Of a stretch of 64,000 nt of DNA, positions 27,827 through 56,340 are shown piece by piece; within the stretch, counting starts at the first letter, position 1, and each line of letters begins with the position of its first letter. The stretch is from Octopus vulgaris (lineage: Eukaryota), in contig OX597815.1 in the NCBI GenBank assembly GCA_951406725.2, positions 140,430,001 through 140,494,000 on the forward strand. Direction: 5' to 3'. Below the pieces are notes generated by a model, which saw nothing but the letters and a program-made list of their open reading frames with translations, had not been told where the DNA came from and ran no database searches. The position numbers and the translations under genes are program-made.

Positions 27827-28102
27827 GTGTACTTACATATAAGAGAGAGGGTACGTACGCTGCTATATATATATGTAAAAAAATACAAAATGGAACAACA
27901 ACGCAAAACATCGTCTTCTAAATGTTTTGCATTCTTGTCCCAGTTTGTATTTTTTTACATATATATATATGTTACTGTCTTGCATGGGCTGGAGTATTTC
28001 TATTTTGGATGTATTTGGGGGTACTTAATTGTGCTCATGACTTAGTATTTTGCTCCTTCCATGGGTATGATTAAGTATCTCATTTATTTCTTTTGCCACA
28101 TT

Positions 28103-28155
28103 TATCACTGACGAAGGGAGGGTTCTTACGAACCTACCCTGAAATCGGTCCGATA
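28103..28155 (+). ncRNA. Type I hammerhead motif within a (TA)n-flanked insert (about 27971-28310)
   Basis: TATCA-CTGACGA-AGGGAGGGTTC-TTAC-GAACCTACCCT-GAAAT-CG-GTC-CGATA. Long helix II, GUC triplet, one mismatch at the base of helix I. Confidence 0.75.
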
Positions 28156-29586
28156 TGGTAATAATGGAATGTTTTAGAAATTTCTGTCGGCTTTTTTTTC
28201 TCGAGTAGCGTGCGTATTGTGAAAAATTATATGGTAATGGACAATATGTCCAATTTTTCGGCATATTTGGCATTAGAAATTTTTTCGTTTGCCCTTATTT
28301 ATAATTTGCATATATATATATATATATATGTGTATATATATATATATACATAAACACACACATCATGTGTGTATATGTAAGTGTGCGTGTGTATACGCGT
28401 GGCTATGTGTGTATAGACACACATACACATGCTGAAATGATAGGAAAAATACAATCGACTGAAGAAAATGAAGTTTTAAGACTGGTCATGAAGATAACAT
28501 GAGTTTATGATATTAGATATGAGATGTGTACAAATGTTATCACCATATTTAAATGTCCAATTCCTGTCAAAATCCATTTGAATTTTACAATCTTCAAATT
28601 TAGCCCTTGTAACCGCCTGAATCAGATAGAAGTGTTTTACATGAGAATTTATTTACGCGATAGGATGTCTTTATACTAAGTAACAAGGAGAGTTAAAAGT
28701 GTAAAATTCATGGTTTTCGAAAACTGCGTTAGAAATATAATGAAGTGGACTAAATACAACATAGTCAGTCATTACTTAGGAAACATATAAGACTTGCTTT
28801 CCCGTGCTTTCTCTAGTTGTTTCAAATGTCCGTGTAGTCACGCGCAGTATATGAATAGCTTCTCAGATCTCTTAGCTTTGAACTGCAATCTGGAGGGAAA
28901 GAGGCAGTTGCTCTAGAATCTAGCCGATATTCTATAGAAGTAAATAGACTTGAATAACGTAAAATGAAGTGCCTTGCTCATGGATTCAATGCATCACTGG
29001 AGCGAAATCGAAAGCAGATCATTTTCAAAGGGCAAAAACCAAGAGCTTAATTGCTACTTCACGAACTTCATTACGAATACATGTAATATATTTATTTTGT
29101 TTGAGCTTATCGACAAACCTGAAGTTGTAAGAGGAGCACGTGATATATTTCGTTCACGCTTTTATTATGATCAATAGTGGGCGTATGGAATACATTGAAA
29201 AAAAAAATCGAAACTACTTTACAGATGAGCTCAACTTATCCTCCACTTAATAATTGTTTCCACATTGTCATTAAATTATTGGTTGTATTTATCAGAAGAG
29301 AAGCGATCAAAGGTGTCTCCGAATAACGATGTAATATCCCTGACAACATACAATATGGCGATATAATCATTGATTACATTTCAGTGTTTTATGAAAATTG
29401 AAAAGTTTTCAAGTGCGATGATTCATTGAAGCTATATCGATTCCTGTTTACCGGTAATACCCGTTATTTACACTACTAATTTATTTGTATGTATGTATGT
29501 ATTTATGTACGTATGTACATATGTATGTATGTACTATGTACATACATGCATACATACATACATACATACATACATACATACATACA

Positions 29587-29688
<102 letters not shown>

Positions 29689-30110
29689 TATATTATTTTA
29701 ACTTATGTCCATTATCCGGAAATCTTTCGTGGCACATTTGTGACCTCTTCAGCTTCACTTTCGTTTCCGTGTGTGTTCGTGCTTCGCTTACTCCATTCTG
29801 TTCTTCTGAGATGTGTATTCTTATGTGCACATGCCTTTGTGTCCTTATTTTGTGTTTGTGTGTGTGCGTGCGTGTGCGTGTGTTGGTGTGCTTGAGTGTG
29901 TGTCAAAGTTTTGAGCAGCAATGGGGCATTCAGCCCCGTCCTTTCACTCCATTGTGCTACTGCTGTCATAAGACTCGAGACAAAAAAAATAAAAAAATAA
30001 AATGAAAAAACGATACAGTTCTTGTATTTTTTTGTATATGTGTGTTCGCTCGACGCTCTAAACATTGAGCCATGCGCCTTCACTAAATATATATATATAT
30101 ATATATATAT

Positions 30111-30261
30111 ACGGAGAATTCACGAAAAAACAAAAGACGAAGGCAGGTGGTATAGAAAACAAACATATATTAGTATAACGCTCAGGAATTGAAAAAGTAT
30201 TTTACTTTTTGAGCCTACCGTCTTCTACAGAAAGGAACACAGAAAGAAACAAGGAGAGAAG
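30111..30261 (-). mobile_element. Diverged copy of the 50101-50309 family
   Basis: The reverse complement aligns by eye over about 150 nt (cctttctgtagaag...gagcgttatactaata...ttcgtcttttgttttttcgt). Confidence 0.75.
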
Positions 30262-31893: not shown

Positions 31894-32100
31894 CTTTATT
31901 TAAAGCAGCAGAAAATTCAACAAAATCTGTTACTCTGAGTTTCTCGTTGCCGTTCATCAGTCTGATGAACGGCAACGAGAAACTCAGAGTAACAGATTTT
32001 GTTGAATTTTCTGCTGCTTTAAATAAAGCATATTACTCTACCACTGGTATTTGAGTACTCTTTTTTCCACCTTGTTTCACATTTATGTGTTTACTTCGGT
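31894..32100 (+). mobile_element. Fold-back insert: perfect 67-bp inverted repeat with 1-nt spacer, HHR-like core and 72-nt tail
   Basis: Arms 31894-31960 / 31962-32028. The right arm begins CTGATGA-ACGGCAACGA-GAAAC-TCAGA-GTA. (TA)n on both sides. Confidence 0.8.
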
Positions 32101-45464: not shown

Positions 45465-47560
45465 GGGGCCCTGATCAACTTGGATCAATCGAAAGCCTTT
45501 GATAGGGTAGACCATCGATACTTGGGGCGGTCCTGAGAGCGGCTGGTTTCGGTCCCGTTTTCCGCGGCTGGATAGCTGCCTTGTACAGAGGCATCCGTTC
45601 GGTAATTCGCGTAAATGGACATCTATCGAGACCTTTCGACATTGCACGTTCGGTCCGTCAGGGATGCCCCTCTCGGCGCTTCTATACGTATTGACTCTTG
45701 AGCCACTACTGCGGAAGCTGGCGACTCTAAGGGGCATCCCGCGAGAATTGGGATGCGGGACGAGCGTGTCTGCATACGCGGACGACGTCACCGTCATAGT
45801 GTCAAGCCACGAGCACATCGAGCTGGTCGGTGAGACACTGAAAAACTACGAAGCGGTGACAGGAGCGAAAATCAACCGGGAAAAGTCAGTGGGCTTGCGA
45901 CTAGGCACCTGGAGAAGCAAGCCCATGCCGTCCACCAGCGCCTCCGTCGTGGGACGCTGGACCGACGGCCCGGTTGAGTTGCTCGGGGTCTGGTTTGGTC
46001 CGGACCTCCAAGTGGAGAAGAACTGGAACGAGATAACGAGTAGGGTGGTCACTCTCGCCCGGCAATGGGCCGAGAGGAAACTGTCCCTAAAAGGTCGAGC
46101 GGAGGTGGCGAACACGTACATCGCGTCCGTCATCTACTACCGCCTGACCGTCGTACCTTGTCCCGACCCTACCATCACCAAACTACAACGCATCCTCTTT
46201 CGCTTCTTGTGGAAAGGATGCGTCCCGATGGTCAGGCGATCCATTTGCTGTCAACACCCGTTAAAAGGAGGGCTGGGCATGCCGTGGTTGATGATGCGCA
46301 AACACGCGCTGAGACTGCGACATCTCTGGCTCTATGTAGACGACGGTGAACAGGTGTGGTCGCCGTTTGTGAGGCACGCTTTCCCGCAGCTCGTCTCCAT
46401 GACCGAACTGCAGTCGTGGATCAAAAAGAGGCCGAGGAAGGGCGAATGGCACCGCGAGTGTCGCGTTGCTCTCAAGCAACTCTGCCGTCCTGGGTCGACC
46501 TTAAGTGACTTCAACACAACCAAAGCATTCTATAGGGGTTTAGTGGAGGGGAGGTACGACGACGAGCTCGGGGCGAACCTGGACGTCGACGAGGAGTACC
46601 TGACCCGCCTGTTCAGGACGACTTTCGGGCCAGGGCCCATGGACAACTTCCAGAGATCCCTGGCCTGGCAGTGCTACCGAGAAGCGCTACCCGTTCGGGA
46701 TAAGCTCTACAGACACGGCTCGAGAAACACGGGGCCGACCTGCCCGAGATGCGGTCAGAGCGACGAAACCGTTCTGCACGCACTCGTTCAGTGTCCAACA
46801 ATTTCCGACCTGTGGGCTTATGTCGAACAACTGCTGTCACGTGTGGGACGAGTCGGTTTATCAGCTGAGTCTATCGTCAATATTGTCACGCCTCCTTCCT
46901 TCAAACGGGAAGGAAGAGCTATTTTCATCATCCTTGTGGCTATGGCGAAAGAATGTATCTGGTGGACGCGTCTGAAAGGATTGGAGACAAACACTTTCCT
47001 CTCTGGTCAATCTCTCATCAACTTCTTCAAGTACCACTTGAAAAGGAAAGTGAGAGTAGAGAGGCAAGTTTTGTCTAGCGAATGTTTTAAAAAAAGATGG
47101 GTGAATGTAGCAAGAATGGCACGTATGAATGACGAAGCCACCTTGAGCATAGTCCTATGAACCCAGAAATCGAAAACAGAGAGTTGCTTATTTGCAAAAA
47201 AAAAAAAAAAAAAAAAAAAGAAATATAAAATGTGACTTCATTGACCGAGGTTACCGTGGTCTTTTCCGTAGGCTTTTCTTTCCACGGGTAAACCTCACCT
47301 GTCCTCCCCTTTACACTTCATATTGACATTTCTGTGATAACGATCCCTATTGATCAATTTTTTTTTTTTTTTTTTTTTTTTTCCTCTCCCCCTTTTTTTA
47401 ACCCCCTTTTTTTGTCCTCCTCCTCTCCTTTTACGATCCCTTTTGATCGAAACTCCCCCTTACTTTTTTTTTTTTTTTTTTTTTTAAACATTCAAAAGAA
47501 AAGCTCTACCTTGTAATTTGTTCTATCTGTGTGCAGCCCTGTGTGGCTAATAAAGAAACA
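45465..47560 (+). mobile_element. 5'-truncated non-LTR retrotransposon, L1/Tx1 clade, inserted in a (TATC)n microsatellite
   Basis: GC-rich block. RT motifs LDQSKAFDRVDH and VRQGCPLS (frameshifted) lead into the 498-aa ORF. The 3' UTR ends ...ctaataaagaaaca and both flanks are (TATC)n. Confidence 0.9.
45664..47160 (+). pseudogene. ORF2 C-terminal part: reverse transcriptase (YADD) plus zf-RVT/CCHC region of the Tx1/L1-like element
   Basis: PLSALLYVLTLEPLL, SAYADDVTV, INREKS, LGVWFG, LSLKGRA, KGGLGMP, CPRCGQSDETVLHALVQC. The N-terminus is missing and frameshifts lie near 45520 and 45668. Confidence 0.9.
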
Positions 47561-48750: not shown

Positions 48751-50033
48751 GCTTTATGAGTAATATGTAAATATATTATGAGCACTAATATATCGTTTTC
48801 TGTCTTTTCTCGAGACCTACGTGGCAAGAGCTTCTTCGCATTTTCAAAGTATTTGAAGTCCCTGAACCTAGTTCAGATCCCTAGCAGGTTGACACCTCCA
48901 GATGCTGCTGGAATTTATTTTACTCGAACAACAAGAAGCACAGTTCCTTACTCAAGGTGAAAAGCGACGCCTTGGTCTGATAATCGAACCCACTGGCTAA
49001 TGGTTGTGAGCCAAACACACTAATCACTATAATGCATGTGCTCACGGTTGATTATTTTACATAATGCAGTGGAGATTTTCATCAAGTAGTTTGATGGGTC
49101 GAACTCATCAAACTATCCAACATAATGTCAGCCATAACAATTGCATTATATATCCAAGTGACGCAGTCATGGTATCAAATATTACACATATTTCACATGT
49201 AAAATAATTTGCAAGATCTCTTACATCTTAGAGAAGGTAAGACAAATTAACATTCTATAATATCATTTATTGCAGTGGAATTGTGTCAGCTTGATAATTC
49301 TTAATACAATGTATTAATAAGAAGCGAAAGAGAAGTGAATATTGCTATCTCTGTGTGTTGGTGAATAGCTAATGCTGCTCTCCCACGATATAATTGTTTC
49401 AGTATGAACACACGATCTCGGGTCAAGTTACAATTCCAAAATTAATTAAATAATTAATTAATTAAGTGTTAATGAGAGAGGGTTAACGGGGTTAGCATTA
49501 ATGAGATTAGTATTAATGTGGTTAGTATTATTAATGTAGTTAATCAACAAAATGAAATGGTTTACACTATTTTGCTTAGTGGCCAACGCTTATTGATTAA
49601 ATACATATCTGTAGACACACAACCATGCATTTCATTGTGTTCATTGTATCCAACTGATAAAATAGGATTTTTAGTCAACAATATTAAATACTCACTCACA
49701 CATAGTCACACACGCATGAATATGTGTGTGTTTATATATATTACACTATATTATATAATTTTTAAAATTCCTGGATGATGCTGTTTTATGAAGTTTTCCT
49801 ATATTGTTGTTGAAAGCTCGAAATAGGGAGTAATCAACAGTCGAAAAATGAGGAGGGCTAAACTTCTTGTGGTATTTTGTCTCCTTCTTATCTCTCATTA
49901 TGTGTTTACGTATTTTTCAGTCGTTGGTGATGTCTTGTTCACATTGTATATTTTTTGGCAGTTTGTCCTGTTCTTATCGCTCGTGTATCTACACATTTTT
50001 CACTCGTTGGTTTAGTCCTATACTTGATGTATT

Positions 50034-50103: not shown

Positions 50104-50309
50104 TCAGACTCCATGATAGATCGTTAGCCACTACACATATTTTTTTCTCTCCTTGTTTCTCTCCTTGTTTTTTTCTGTGTCCCTTTCTGTAGAAGAGCGT
50201 AGGCTCGAAATGTAAAAGACTTTCTCTATTCTTGAGCGTTATACTAATACATCTGTTTGTTTTGTACACCACCTGTCTTCGTCTTTTGTTTTTTTCGTAA
50301 ACTCTCCCT
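50101..50309 (+). mobile_element. Short (TA)n-flanked insert with a minimal HHR-like motif (50183-50218)
   Basis: CTTT-CTGTAGA-A-GAGC-GTAG-GCTC-GAAAT-GTA-AAAG; homologous to 30111-30261 on the opposite strand. Confidence 0.65.
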
Positions 50310-50319
50310 ATATATATAT

Positions 50320-50759
50320 ATTAATCAAAATAAAAACATGATGCCAAGGATTCAGCGGTACATATGTTTCGGGCCTTTATTAGACGGATTTATAACAATG
50401 CACAATTACTACCCCAAGGACATGTATTACATCATTGAGAGAAGGACGGGATGGACGCTTCATTTTTGTGCTGGTGCCGCATTATGTCGTACGCGAATGA
50501 GAGGATTTGCATCCCCAACGTAGAATTTTTGATGTAATACATGTCCTTGGGGTAGTAATTGTGCGCGGCTGAAGAAGGGCATAGACACACATTATGCATT
50601 GTTATAAATCCGTCTAATAAAGGCCCGAAACATATGTACCGCTGAATCCTTGGGATCATGTTTTTATTTTGATTAATTAACTCCACCACCTACACCACCA
50701 AACGGTATATACAGGTGCTTACAATTATCAAGTACTCACCCTGAATTTCTGTACCCAAC

Positions 50760-50763
<4 letters not shown>
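50320..50763 (+). mobile_element. HHR-bearing fold-back insert (PLE pLTR-like) between (TA)n tracts
   Basis: Inverted arms 50320-50434 / 50530-50677, a 95-nt spacer and an unpaired tail 50678-50763. Confidence 0.8.
50565..50642 (+). ncRNA. Canonical type I hammerhead ribozyme motif
   Basis: GCGG-CTGAAGA-A-GGGC...GCCC-GAAAC-ATAT-GTA-CCGC. All core bases are present; helix III is the palindrome ACATATGT; predicted cleavage is after 50638. Confidence 0.85.
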
Positions 50764-50804
<41 letters not shown>

Positions 50805-52038: not shown

Positions 52039-52640
52039 GGCGGCGAGCTGGCAGAAGCGTTAGCACGTCGGGCGAAATGCTTAGCAGTATCTAGTCTGCC
52101 GTTACGTTCTGGGTTCAAATTCCGCCGAGGTCGACTTTGCCTTTCATCCTTTCGGGATTGATTAAATAAGTACCAGTTACTCACTGGGGTCGATATAATC
52201 TACTTAATCCGTTTGTCTGTCCTTGTTTGTCCTCTGTGTGTTTAGCACCTTGTGGGCAATAAAGATATAGGTATTTCGTCTGCCGTTACGTTCTGAGTTC
52301 AAATTCCGCCGAGGTCGACTTTGCCTTTCATCCTTTCGGGATTGATTAAATAAGTGTCAGTTACTCACTGGGGTCGATATAATCTACTTAATCCGTTTGT
52401 CTGTCCTTGTTTGTCCTCTGTGTGTTTAGCACCTTGTGGGCAATAAAGATATAGGTATTTCGTCTGCCGTTACGTTCTGAGTTCAAATTCCGCCGAGGTC
52501 GACTTCGCCTTTCATCCTTTCGGGGTCGATTAAATAAGTACAGTTACTCACTGGGGTCGATATAATCGACTTAATCCGTTTGTCTGTCCTTGTTTGTCCT
52601 CTGTGTGTTTAGCCCCTTGTGGGCAATAAAGAAAAAGGTA
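52039..52640 (+). mobile_element. tRNA-derived SINE family A: one head and three tandem 184-bp bodies
   Basis: Head ggcggcgagctggcagaa...gttcaaattcc; core gcctttcatcctttcggggtcgat; units at 52096, 52280 and 52464; candidate TSD aataagtaaaac (52024-52035 / 52656-52667). Confidence 0.85.
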
Positions 52641-54080: not shown

Positions 54081-56340
54081 AACAATATACGATATAAAAT
54101 AAAAGAAGTAAAATTCACACAGTTTATGTAGTTTTAATAAAATTCTAAATATAAGTGGATTCATAAACGAAAGAGTATCGTTTGTCGACCGGTTTCACTT
54201 TCGCAAATGATGACATTGAAATTATTGCAATCTCGGTATTTTCTTAAGAAGATTTTATTTCATGTTGTGTATGGAGGTTTGTTAATGAAATGAATCAACA
54301 TGTAGAAAAAAAAACTCAGGGGAGGGGGTAATTGGTGATCGTTACTATTCGGAACAGGGGAGGTAACTGCTCAGTTTTGGAGGTGCGGTAATAAATATAG
54401 AAAAACTCAAATGTTAAAGTACTGAGATGAAATATGTACACTGATGTGTATGTGAACACGAATTAATATATATTCTGAGGTCAAAGTTGGTTATGCGTTC
54501 AATATTTTTCGATAAATAAAGCTTCTTTATTTAAACGTATAGAAATTGTTTCATTATACTTGTACGTGGGGATAACTGATGTTTGGTTGGATATTACCTG
54601 CACATCTCTCTATTTGTTCACTCACAGGAATCTTCACAGTTTGGACGCTCACATTTTTAACCATTAGTTTCATGGTTGTTGTGTAAAGCTTCACATTTGT
54701 CAGAAATCTTTTCAGCTATTTGTGTTGCTTTTGGCATTTGATGAATTTATGTGTTTTCAGAATGTTGCTCATTTTTAGTTCTCAAGTGAGCATAGGTAGA
54801 TTTTGTACAACAGTGTTGTATGCCTCATTGTTTCTAGGGTTGTGCTTTTATATATGTGGTAGTGTTTTGAGATGTGGTGTGGTGCTACGTTATGTTTCCC
54901 TTAGTGCTTTAATGCCTAATTTCTTGACTCGCTTAATTTCATCGACTATATGTGAAGGTGGATATTGTCTTTCAGTTAGTGTTGTTCTGAGGTCTTGAAG
55001 ATAGGGGCCCCGGGTATTTCCATCAGACACTATTGTGCGCATCATTTTTGCTAAATTGAGCTAAACAGAAGATATTTTTTCGAGTCCGTTGGTTTATGAT
55101 AAATATCAGTTACAATTTGGTTGTTGACATTTTTATCATAATAGCCAAGAAAGGGTGCTGTTCTTTGCTATATTTCATTGTAAATTGAAAGTTAGGATTT
55201 ATATAATTTAATATTGATTTTAATTCCAAAAGTTTATCAATGGTTTTCATTCCAAATGATAAAGTATTTATCCAGACATCTTTTCCAGTTTTCTCTTATA
55301 TAATGGTGAAATGTTCATGTTTTTGCAGTGACACTTCATATATGGAGAATTCAAAATATCCCATTATTAGGTTTGTAAGAATAGGTGATGCTTTCGTTCC
55401 CGTCGTAATTCCGTCGTATCGTAAATAATTGTTCTGAAGTATAAATTTTAAAGTTTCAATAATAAAAAACTGATTTATGCGTTCCGGAAGTTCTTCGGGA
55501 TATTTTTCCTGCCAGAATTTTAGTGCTTCAGTTTCATAGTCATGTGGGATGCTGGTGTAAAGATTAACATCGAAGGAAGCCAATAAGGCCTCTTCATTAG
55601 TTGTTTTTGGTAGGATCTCAAGCATATCTAAATCGTCTCTAATGAAACTTTTGACGTATTTCTGCAGAGGTTTCAGTATAATATCTAGAAAATTGCTTAG
55701 GCGTTGGGTTTCACAGGCTTGGCCAGCTATAATGAGTCTTAACTTGAAATCTACTGACAGTAAAATATTCATGTATTTGCCTGACGTTTGTTTGCAGGCT
55801 TCATTAACCATCTTGCTCTTGTGTATTTTAGGTAGGCTGCAAAAAAGACTAGGTTTCCATTTAAAGTTCGTGATATAATCTATTTCTTTTTCTGTCAAGC
55901 CTTTTTCATGTAGATGAATTAAAGGTGCAAGATTTTTCATTGTGTATATGTTGTTTATCGTTTACAACTTTTTGTAGAACGTATAGTTTTCTAGCATGGA
56001 TAATACTAGTCTTTTTTTGTAGTATTTTGTGTCCACCAGAACTACAACACTTCCTTTGTCTTCAATTGTCTGTTCTTTGTCGTTTTGTAGTTCAATTAGA
56101 TTTTTCATTCTAAATTGTTGAAGTTTGAATTAATTTTTCGTTTATGGAAAGTATTTGTGAAATTTTGGATAAGGTCGCAGAAGTAATCAAGTGCTTTATT
56201 CCTACTCTTAGTTGGGAGATAATTGCTTCTGTTTTTAATCAGTGATTCCTCCTCATTGTTGTAATCAGTTACTGCTCCTGTGAGTCATTGGTTCTTGCAG
56301 AATTCTGAAACATCGTCATTAATTTCAACCAACTGCTTCC
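54072..56340 (-). mobile_element. Decayed Penelope-like retroelement (RT remnant plus 3' non-coding region)
   Basis: The minus ORF 55296-55940 has PLE RT motifs LPKIHK, LRLII, LDIILKPL, SFIRD, LASFDVNLYTSIPH, GITTGTKASPILTNL. (TA)n flanks it and an HHR 3' half (GAAACCGGTC) lies near the 3' end. Ends are approximate. Confidence 0.8.
55296..55940 (-). pseudogene. Penelope-type reverse transcriptase fragment
   Basis: PLE RT motifs as above; the frame is disrupted on both sides. Confidence 0.8.

What the first reader, a model, noticed from the sequence alone, without database searches (positions are those of the whole stretch)
50320..50763. Intact canonical hammerhead whose inverted twin has lost the catalytic 5' half
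Seen: the right arm holds a complete HHR (50565-50642) with an extended helix II (GGGC/GCCC plus TAGAC/GTCTA). The otherwise near-identical inverted left arm lacks about 33 nt spanning gcggCTGAAGAagggc...atta, joined at a 'tgc' microhomology. Inference: this is the best candidate for an active ribozyme. The deletion is either a polymerase skip across structure during fold-back synthesis or a later loss that leaves only one strand self-cleaving.
Basis: partly seen in the sequence, partly recalled or inferred. Interest (0 to 1): 0.75.

Follow-up and report, generated by a model that had tools for sequence, protein, structure and literature searches.

The report
Penelope transposon end, damaged mirror hammerhead
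This is a short leftover end of a common Penelope-type jumping gene, inserted back-to-back with its mirror copy as is usual for such elements; it carries the family's predicted self-cutting RNA motif, and the 33-base gap in the mirror copy is found only here and is likely an ordinary copying or repair slip, not a device.

Summary
The anatomy is real. 50565-50642 holds a complete type I hammerhead core. The inverted arm 50320-50434 matches 50530-50677 at 114 of 115 bases but lacks 33 nt, joined at TGC inside an ATTGTGC/ATTATGC repeat.

The insert is a 5'-truncated pseudo-LTR of a Penelope-like retrotransposon with Hydra-clade motifs. It has 1,547 exact hits of a 28-mer, and related copies flank intact 842-codon RT + GIY-YIG frames. 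Inverted arms, one tailed end and (TA)n targets are routine (53 of 53 pairs).

The junction occurs once in the genome. 5 copies have 9-39-nt losses in this interval, all different, against 1,417 of normal length, so mirror arms normally keep the core. 'Canonical' overstates: GGGC is a near-private substitution (2 copies; family GGCC), helix I has 4 bp and helix III is a palindromic dimer type. In a read-through transcript the remaining arm is predicted to sequester the cleavage site (63 kcal/mol).

Timing is open: within pairs, deletions lean to the tail-less arm (11 vs 3-6, not significant). Verdict: new member of a known kind, low interest.

The parts
50309..50319 (.). (TA)n remnant of the target microsatellite, left side
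   Evidence: sequence; family ends abut (TA)n
50320..50434 (-). inverted, 5'-truncated pLTR arm, tail-less 'short' 3' end (equivalent to 50677-80)
   Evidence: 114 of 115 identical to 50530-50677 apart from the gap
50399..50403 (-). 33-nt deletion junction in the inverted arm; removes helix I 5' strand, CUGAAGA and the 5' side of helix II; 3-nt microhomology
   Evidence: junction 24-mer occurs once in the genome
50433..50434 (.). head-to-head inversion junction, 2-nt overlap CA
   Evidence: sequence; left arm ends 50434, forward copy starts 50433
50433..50763 (+). forward 5'-truncated pLTR copy of a Penelope-like element
   Evidence: up to 97.6% identical to dispersed copies, 89-92% to pLTRs flanking RT-EN ORFs
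50565..50642 (+). type I hammerhead motif of the PLE type; predicted cleavage after 50638
50579..50579 (+). near-private C>G that turns family GGCC into GGGC and shifts the helix II register
   Evidence: 49 of 49 close copies have C; 2 GGGC copies genome-wide; registers
50678..50763 (+). one-sided 'tail' (family mode 50753, about 73 nt beyond the short end); stops 67 nt before the ORF start position
   Evidence: end histogram; ATG at window-equivalent 50830
50764..50800 (.). (TA)n target microsatellite, right side
   Evidence: sequence

Best explanation
The insert is a truncated head-to-head double end of a Penelope-like retrotransposon (likely Hydra clade), and the 33-nt gap in its mirror arm is a one-off deletion between two short imperfect repeats that likely has no function. 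Shown: the forward copy is the pLTR that in other copies flanks an 842-codon RT + GIY-YIG frame; both ends sit in (TA)n; one arm ends at about 50680 and the other carries a tail. Inferred from PMC11167929: the element's protein nicks the TA run and primes reverse transcription at two internal sites of uncleaved RNA; two aborted cDNAs joined head-to-head would give the short arm and the tailed arm. Inferred: the gap arose by slippage or end-joining between ATTGTGC and ATTATGC, during synthesis of the short arm (about 55%) or later (about 45%). Predicted: the surviving hammerhead cuts weakly and only as a dimer through ACAUAUGU or with protein help, and is folded off in any transcript that includes the left arm.
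For: Family: 1,547 exact hits of the 3'-half 28-mer, 355 of a 5'-half 24-mer. ORF link: the downstream continuation of the repeat runs into an RT frame; L058, L061, L062 hold open 842-codon frames and L057 has 1,499-nt direct repeats 4,684 nt apart; L122, 96% identical to this copy, carries the endonuclease end at 85% amino-acid identity. Motifs DKT, CNCRCASEC (CxCX5C), YRDD, VIY..YIG, CQLC, CIH fit the Hydra description (PMC8557442 section 11). Geometry: 53 of 53 inverted pairs have one short and one longer end; 76 of 77 in the larger set. Deletion: junction unique; 5 shortened copies, each different, against 1,417 of normal length; L116 and L124 show the same pattern, one arm hit in the hammerhead at a 2-3-nt microhomology with the partner intact. 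Folding: helices I-III at probability 0.0 in a read-through transcript, 63-72 kcal/mol to force them; dimer -34.2 against 2 x -12.0.
Against: Pfam gives no RT or GIY-YIG hit for the ORF (only an unrelated E 0.022 match) and the PDB sequence search found nothing, so clade rests on motifs and comparison by eye, without a tree. RWK is RWA here and the unit is 4.7 kb, not under 3 kb. No intact full-length element of this copy's own subfamily was found; the nearest ORF-flanking pLTRs are 89-92% identical. The C>G change does create a G10.1-C11.1 register (probability 0.95 against 0.02 in a family-type copy), so this copy could cut better than its relatives. Covariation is uninformative (1 of 19 pairs, 91 of 500 shuffles reach it).
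Confidence: 0.85

Rival explanations
1. The deletion was retained because it leaves one strand self-cleaving, giving a strand-specific ribozyme switch at this locus.
For: The gap removes the catalytic 5' box and the minus strand has no CUGANGA. The surviving copy gained a G10.1-C11.1 register.
Against: The event is unique and such losses are 5 against 1,417. The remaining arm still masks GAAA, helix III and the cut site. GGGC also arose in an unrelated copy, L110. Catalytic mutants did not affect insertion in vitro for the Anolis element (PMC11167929).
Confidence: 0.04
2. The gap and the right arm's private bases are sequencing or assembly errors inside a hairpin-forming repeat.
For: Fold-back DNA is very stable (-137 kcal/mol). 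Three right-arm bases differ from nearly all close copies (50579, 50654, 50679).
Against: The gap is clean and sits at a 6-of-7 repeat. Other arms of equal or greater length are assembled without gaps. About 1% arm divergence is normal for the family (150 mismatches in 14,101 bp).
Confidence: 0.06
3. It is an independent non-coding retrozyme or mini-element rather than a broken end of a coding element.
For: No ORF in the window matches the family protein. Several close copies extend upstream only into AT-rich non-coding sequence.
Against: No tandem array. 5' ends vary continuously. The upstream sequence aligns with the 3' UTR side of ORF-bearing copies, and L122 reaches the endonuclease frame.
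Confidence: 0.05

Closest known systems
Hydra clade of Penelope-like elements, incl. Hydra-1_Obim (Craig et al. 2021, PMC8557442; passages, section 11, supplement part 2 and search hits seen)
   Same: DKT, CxCX5C linker, C-terminal GIY-YIG with CxxC and CxH, (TA)n targets, hammerhead in the pLTR with an extra base on both sides of helix II and palindromic helix III; Penelope-13_HM is listed with an inverted 5' copy and a hammerhead on each strand.
   Different: A separate family: none of six short motifs matched a Hydra entry (five had no hit, one hit an unrelated coding stretch). Unit 4.7 kb with about 1.5 kb of 3' UTR, RWA for RWK, helix II about 50 nt, tail about 73 nt instead of 30-40.
PLE hammerheads (Cervera and De la Pena 2014, PMC4209133; parts 1-2 of 4 read)
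   Same: Short helix I (4-5 bp), long helix II, base between 9 and 10.1, palindromic helix III, dual motifs 100-700 bp apart on opposite strands; dimer-dependent, low activity in vitro.
   Different: In this family the most stable helix II register leaves A opposite C next to the core; only this copy and one other have GGGC.
Poseidon of Anolis, PAc (Frangieh et al. 2024, PMC11167929; parts 1-2 of 4 read)
   Same: Two discrete 3' ends downstream of the hammerhead, AT-rich targets, insertions that span the uncut cleavage site.
   Different: There the start sites lie inside the ORF; here both ends lie 77-150 nt upstream of the ATG.
Adineta vaga Penelope insertions (Arkhipova et al. 2013, PMC3846280; passages)
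   Same: [quoted passage not shown]
   Different: Other clade; target-site duplications are visible there and hidden by (TA)n here.

Membership tests
Type I hammerhead ribozyme | Core CUGANGA, GAAA, U-H cleavage site in type I order | tested here: met
Type I hammerhead ribozyme | Three helices around the core | tested here: inconclusive
   Isolated 78 nt: helices I and II at about 0.95, helix III about 0.1; with 20-nt flanks helix I falls to 0.02. Covariation 1 of 19 pairs. No Rfam hit.
Type I hammerhead ribozyme | Site-specific self-cleavage | not testable with these tools
   needs an in vitro assay or cyclic-phosphate sequencing
Canonical metazoan hammerhead as defined in PMC4209133 | 6-bp helix I and 4-bp helix II with interacting loops | tested here: not met
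   helix I 4 bp, helix II a three-stem arm of 50 nt
EN+ Penelope-like element | Single ORF with RT and C-terminal GIY-YIG endonuclease | tested here: met
   In family copies, by motifs; absent from this truncated copy; Pfam did not detect it
EN+ Penelope-like element | pLTR direct repeats from partial tandems, holding the hammerhead | tested here: met
   L057: 1,499-nt repeats, 99.7% identical, around the ORF
EN+ Penelope-like element | Inverted 5'-truncated copy and one-sided tail | tested here: met
   53 of 53 pairs
Hydra clade | DKT in place of DKG; CxCX5C linker; CxxC and CxH in the endonuclease | tested here: met
Hydra clade | Insertion into (TA)n | tested here: met
Hydra clade | RWK motif; generally under 3 kb | tested here: inconclusive
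   RRIRWAAYH has RW but not K; unit 4,684 nt, coding part 2.5 kb; the paper says 'generally'
Hydra clade | Phylogenetic placement with Hydra RTs | not tested
   reference proteins were only viewed in the supplement; similarity judged by eye
Non-LTR retrozyme | Head-to-tail tandem units, each with a hammerhead, no coding partner sequence | tested here: not met
   dispersed, truncated or inverted copies continuous with an ORF; definition from bioRxiv 10.64898/2026.07.22.740005, part 1 of 5

The most novel reading that the evidence does not exclude
The gap is a footprint of how inverted Penelope arms are built: the tail-less arm is made by a second, slip-prone priming or repair step, so internal deletions pile up in that arm while point mutations do not. 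Within inverted pairs, index copy excluded, deletions of 8 nt or more were 11 in tail-less arms against 3 clear (6 with ambiguous cases) in tailed arms; substitutions were 83 against 68. With about 1,500 copies this family would let the mechanism be tested from one genome.
Probability: 0.3. Interest if true: 0.45.

Novelty: new member of a known kind. Interest (0 to 1): 0.17.

Why it matters
As a single locus it matters little: it is one of about 1,500 hammerhead-bearing ends and one of a handful with a chance gap. The family is a useful object: young, with open full-length frames, two sharp 3' ends about 73 nt apart and many inverted pairs, so it can test the two-start-site model of Penelope insertion in a second clade. 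The GGCC and GGGC copies are a natural pair for asking whether the A-C juxtaposition next to the core tunes down PLE hammerheads.

Tried and rejected
Rfam: no hammerhead model hit, whole window at E<=1 (150 of 195 rows shown) or local at E<=10. Pfam and PDB sequence searches gave nothing useful for the ORF. Public runs: no RNA holder listed. Contigs of 4 runs laid twice: none of the 32 pieces shown (105 not shown) bridges the deletion or inversion junction, and the private bases were not clearly seen; contigs break in repeats, so no verdict on polymorphism, orthologues or timing. Skip across a hairpin: only a weak 19-nt hairpin matching one breakpoint. Tail hairpin as a start signal (lead from earlier notes): z -0.84 and -0.90, not supported here. 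Arm asymmetry over all 250 unique copies: 8 events in short-end against 6 in long-end copies, p 0.43; within pairs p 0.057 to 0.33, post hoc. Pair L085 was dropped from the gap count as a misalignment; two low-complexity events in L145 and one unpolarised event in L095 were left out of the arm tally. Two deletion-pattern searches gave 1 and 0 hits. Lunse et al. 2017 on dimeric PLE hammerheads was not held and is not used; one look-up returned an unrelated paper. Host gene context was not determined.

Full report
Observation. The forward strand holds GCGG-CUGAAGA-A-GGGC...GCCC-GAAA-CAUAUG-UA-CCGC at 50565-50642, with the predicted cut after A50638. The descriptor finds one other complete core in the window, at 28102-28161; block shuffles give 0.02 sites per window. 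The left arm 50320-50434 is the reverse complement of 50530-50677 with one mismatch and a 33-nt gap. The gap is joined at TGC, within ATTGTGC 50558-64 and ATTATGC 50591-97.

What it belongs to. A search of the own genome (2.8 Gb; likely an octopus, from recalled repeat resemblance and an earlier scan note) gave many 97-98% copies. Exact counts are 355 for a 5'-half 24-mer and 1,547 for a 3'-half 28-mer. Following the downstream continuation of one copy led into a reverse transcriptase frame. Three of twelve longer fetches hold an open 842-codon frame, and L057 has 1,499-nt direct repeats 4,684 nt apart around the frame. The protein has PADKT, YRDD, a CNCRCASEC linker, VIY...YIG, CQLC and CIH, the marks listed for the Hydra clade (PMC8557442 section 11). 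It resembles the Hydra proteins in that supplement by eye but is not Hydra-1_Obim. Pfam and PDB searches did not recognise it and no tree was built. The pLTRs beside full frames are 89-92% identical to this copy; L122, 96% identical, reaches the endonuclease end.

Geometry is routine. Copies end at two sharp positions, 50680 (43 copies) and 50753 (42 copies) of 144, nearly always into (TA)n. All 53 inverted pairs in the first set join one short end to one longer end; 76 of 77 do in the larger set. Inverted 5'-truncated copies with a one-sided tail are described for Penelope-like elements (PMC8557442 passages; PMC3846280 passages), and hammerhead pairs on opposite strands were noted in PMC4209133. 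For the Anolis element, the tail is the stretch between two reverse transcription start sites, uncut RNA is the main template, and ribozyme mutants insert normally (PMC11167929). I infer the same here: both ends lie 42 and 115 nt downstream of the cut site, so the template spanned it.

The ribozyme. 128 of 137 sampled copies that reach the motif keep both core boxes (sampled with intact motifs, so an upper figure). The family has GGCC, pairing with GGCC and leaving A opposite C beside the core, the layout seen in many Hydra entries of supplement S2. GGGC occurs in 2 copies genome-wide and in 0 of 49 close copies. It shifts helix II to a G10.1-C11.1 register (0.95 against 0.02), a point in favour of this copy cutting somewhat better. 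Against strong activity: helix III pairs at about 0.1, helix I drops to 0.02 with 20-nt flanks, and the stable form is a dimer through ACAUAUGU (-34.2 against 2 x -12.0). Similar motifs cut weakly and only as dimers in vitro (PMC4209133). In a transcript entering from the left, the arm pairs with 50598-50642 and the hammerhead costs 63 kcal/mol to form; the deletion does not free it. Covariation is uninformative in so young a family (34 of 47 distinct sequences aligned).

The deletion. The junction occurs once. Between two anchors spanning the 5' half, 1,417 copies have normal length and 5 are shorter by 9-39 nt, each with different ends. L116 lost 22 nt including C3 at a 3-nt microhomology, and L124 lost 31 nt of helix II, each in one arm with the partner intact; L064 and L069 lost 9 and 16 nt. 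A second interval outside the ribozyme also gave 5 shortened copies, so the core is not singled out. Microhomology deletions in Penelope copies are described. The lost segment has no hairpin that matches both breakpoints.

Timing. Arms in the family differ by about 1% and this right arm has three near-private bases, so there was time for later loss. For loss at insertion: within pairs, leaving out this locus, I count 11 deletions of 8 nt or more in tail-less arms (L063, L064, L078, L089, L116, L122, L124, L125, L127 twice, L129) against 3 clear ones in tailed arms (L069, L125, L136) and 3 ambiguous ones in AT-rich repeats; p 0.057 or 0.33. Substitutions are symmetric, 83 against 68 in 72 pairs, p 0.25. 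Over all 250 copies the excess vanishes (p 0.43). This is a post hoc hint only.

Literature. Three paper searches on Penelope, hammerhead, inverted or tail terms and one with octopus listed no description of this family or of arm-biased deletions; only listings and the five papers named were seen, and Repbase-type libraries were not searchable. bioRxiv supplements were closed and not seen.

Verdict. Real motif, real gap, ordinary cause. New family member of a known kind; interest 0.17.

Noticed in passing
window 28102-28161 (+): Second complete type I hammerhead core of another family (CUGACGA, long helix II, palindromic helix III); misfolds as a monomer, dimer -45.3 kcal/mol.
   Followed up: partly
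window 50105-50310: Left flank is a very high-copy repeat with a decayed hammerhead-like stretch (GAAGAGCGTAGGCTCGAAA); another copy at 30099-30260. Likely another Penelope end, making the site a nest in one TA run.
   Followed up: no
window 49770-49850: A third degenerate hammerhead-like stretch ending GAAAGCTCGAAA, read by eye.
   Followed up: no
family-wide, window-equivalent 50680 and 50753: Tail of about 73 nt, twice the 30-40 nt usually reported; both ends lie upstream of the ORF start.
   Followed up: partly
L058 1561-4089, L061, L062: Open 842-codon frames, 98-99% alike, suggest recent activity of the family.
   Followed up: partly
L029 about 843-925: Another hammerhead-like motif with a long helix II upstream of a family copy, read by eye.
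   Followed up: no
window 45511-47160 (+) and 55296-55961 (-): 549-codon LINE-type RT frame and a 221-codon frame resembling another Penelope clade (labels recalled, not tested).
   Followed up: no
window 31915-32007 and 52087-52637: Near-perfect 93-nt hairpin; three tandem 184-nt SINE-like units.
   Followed up: no
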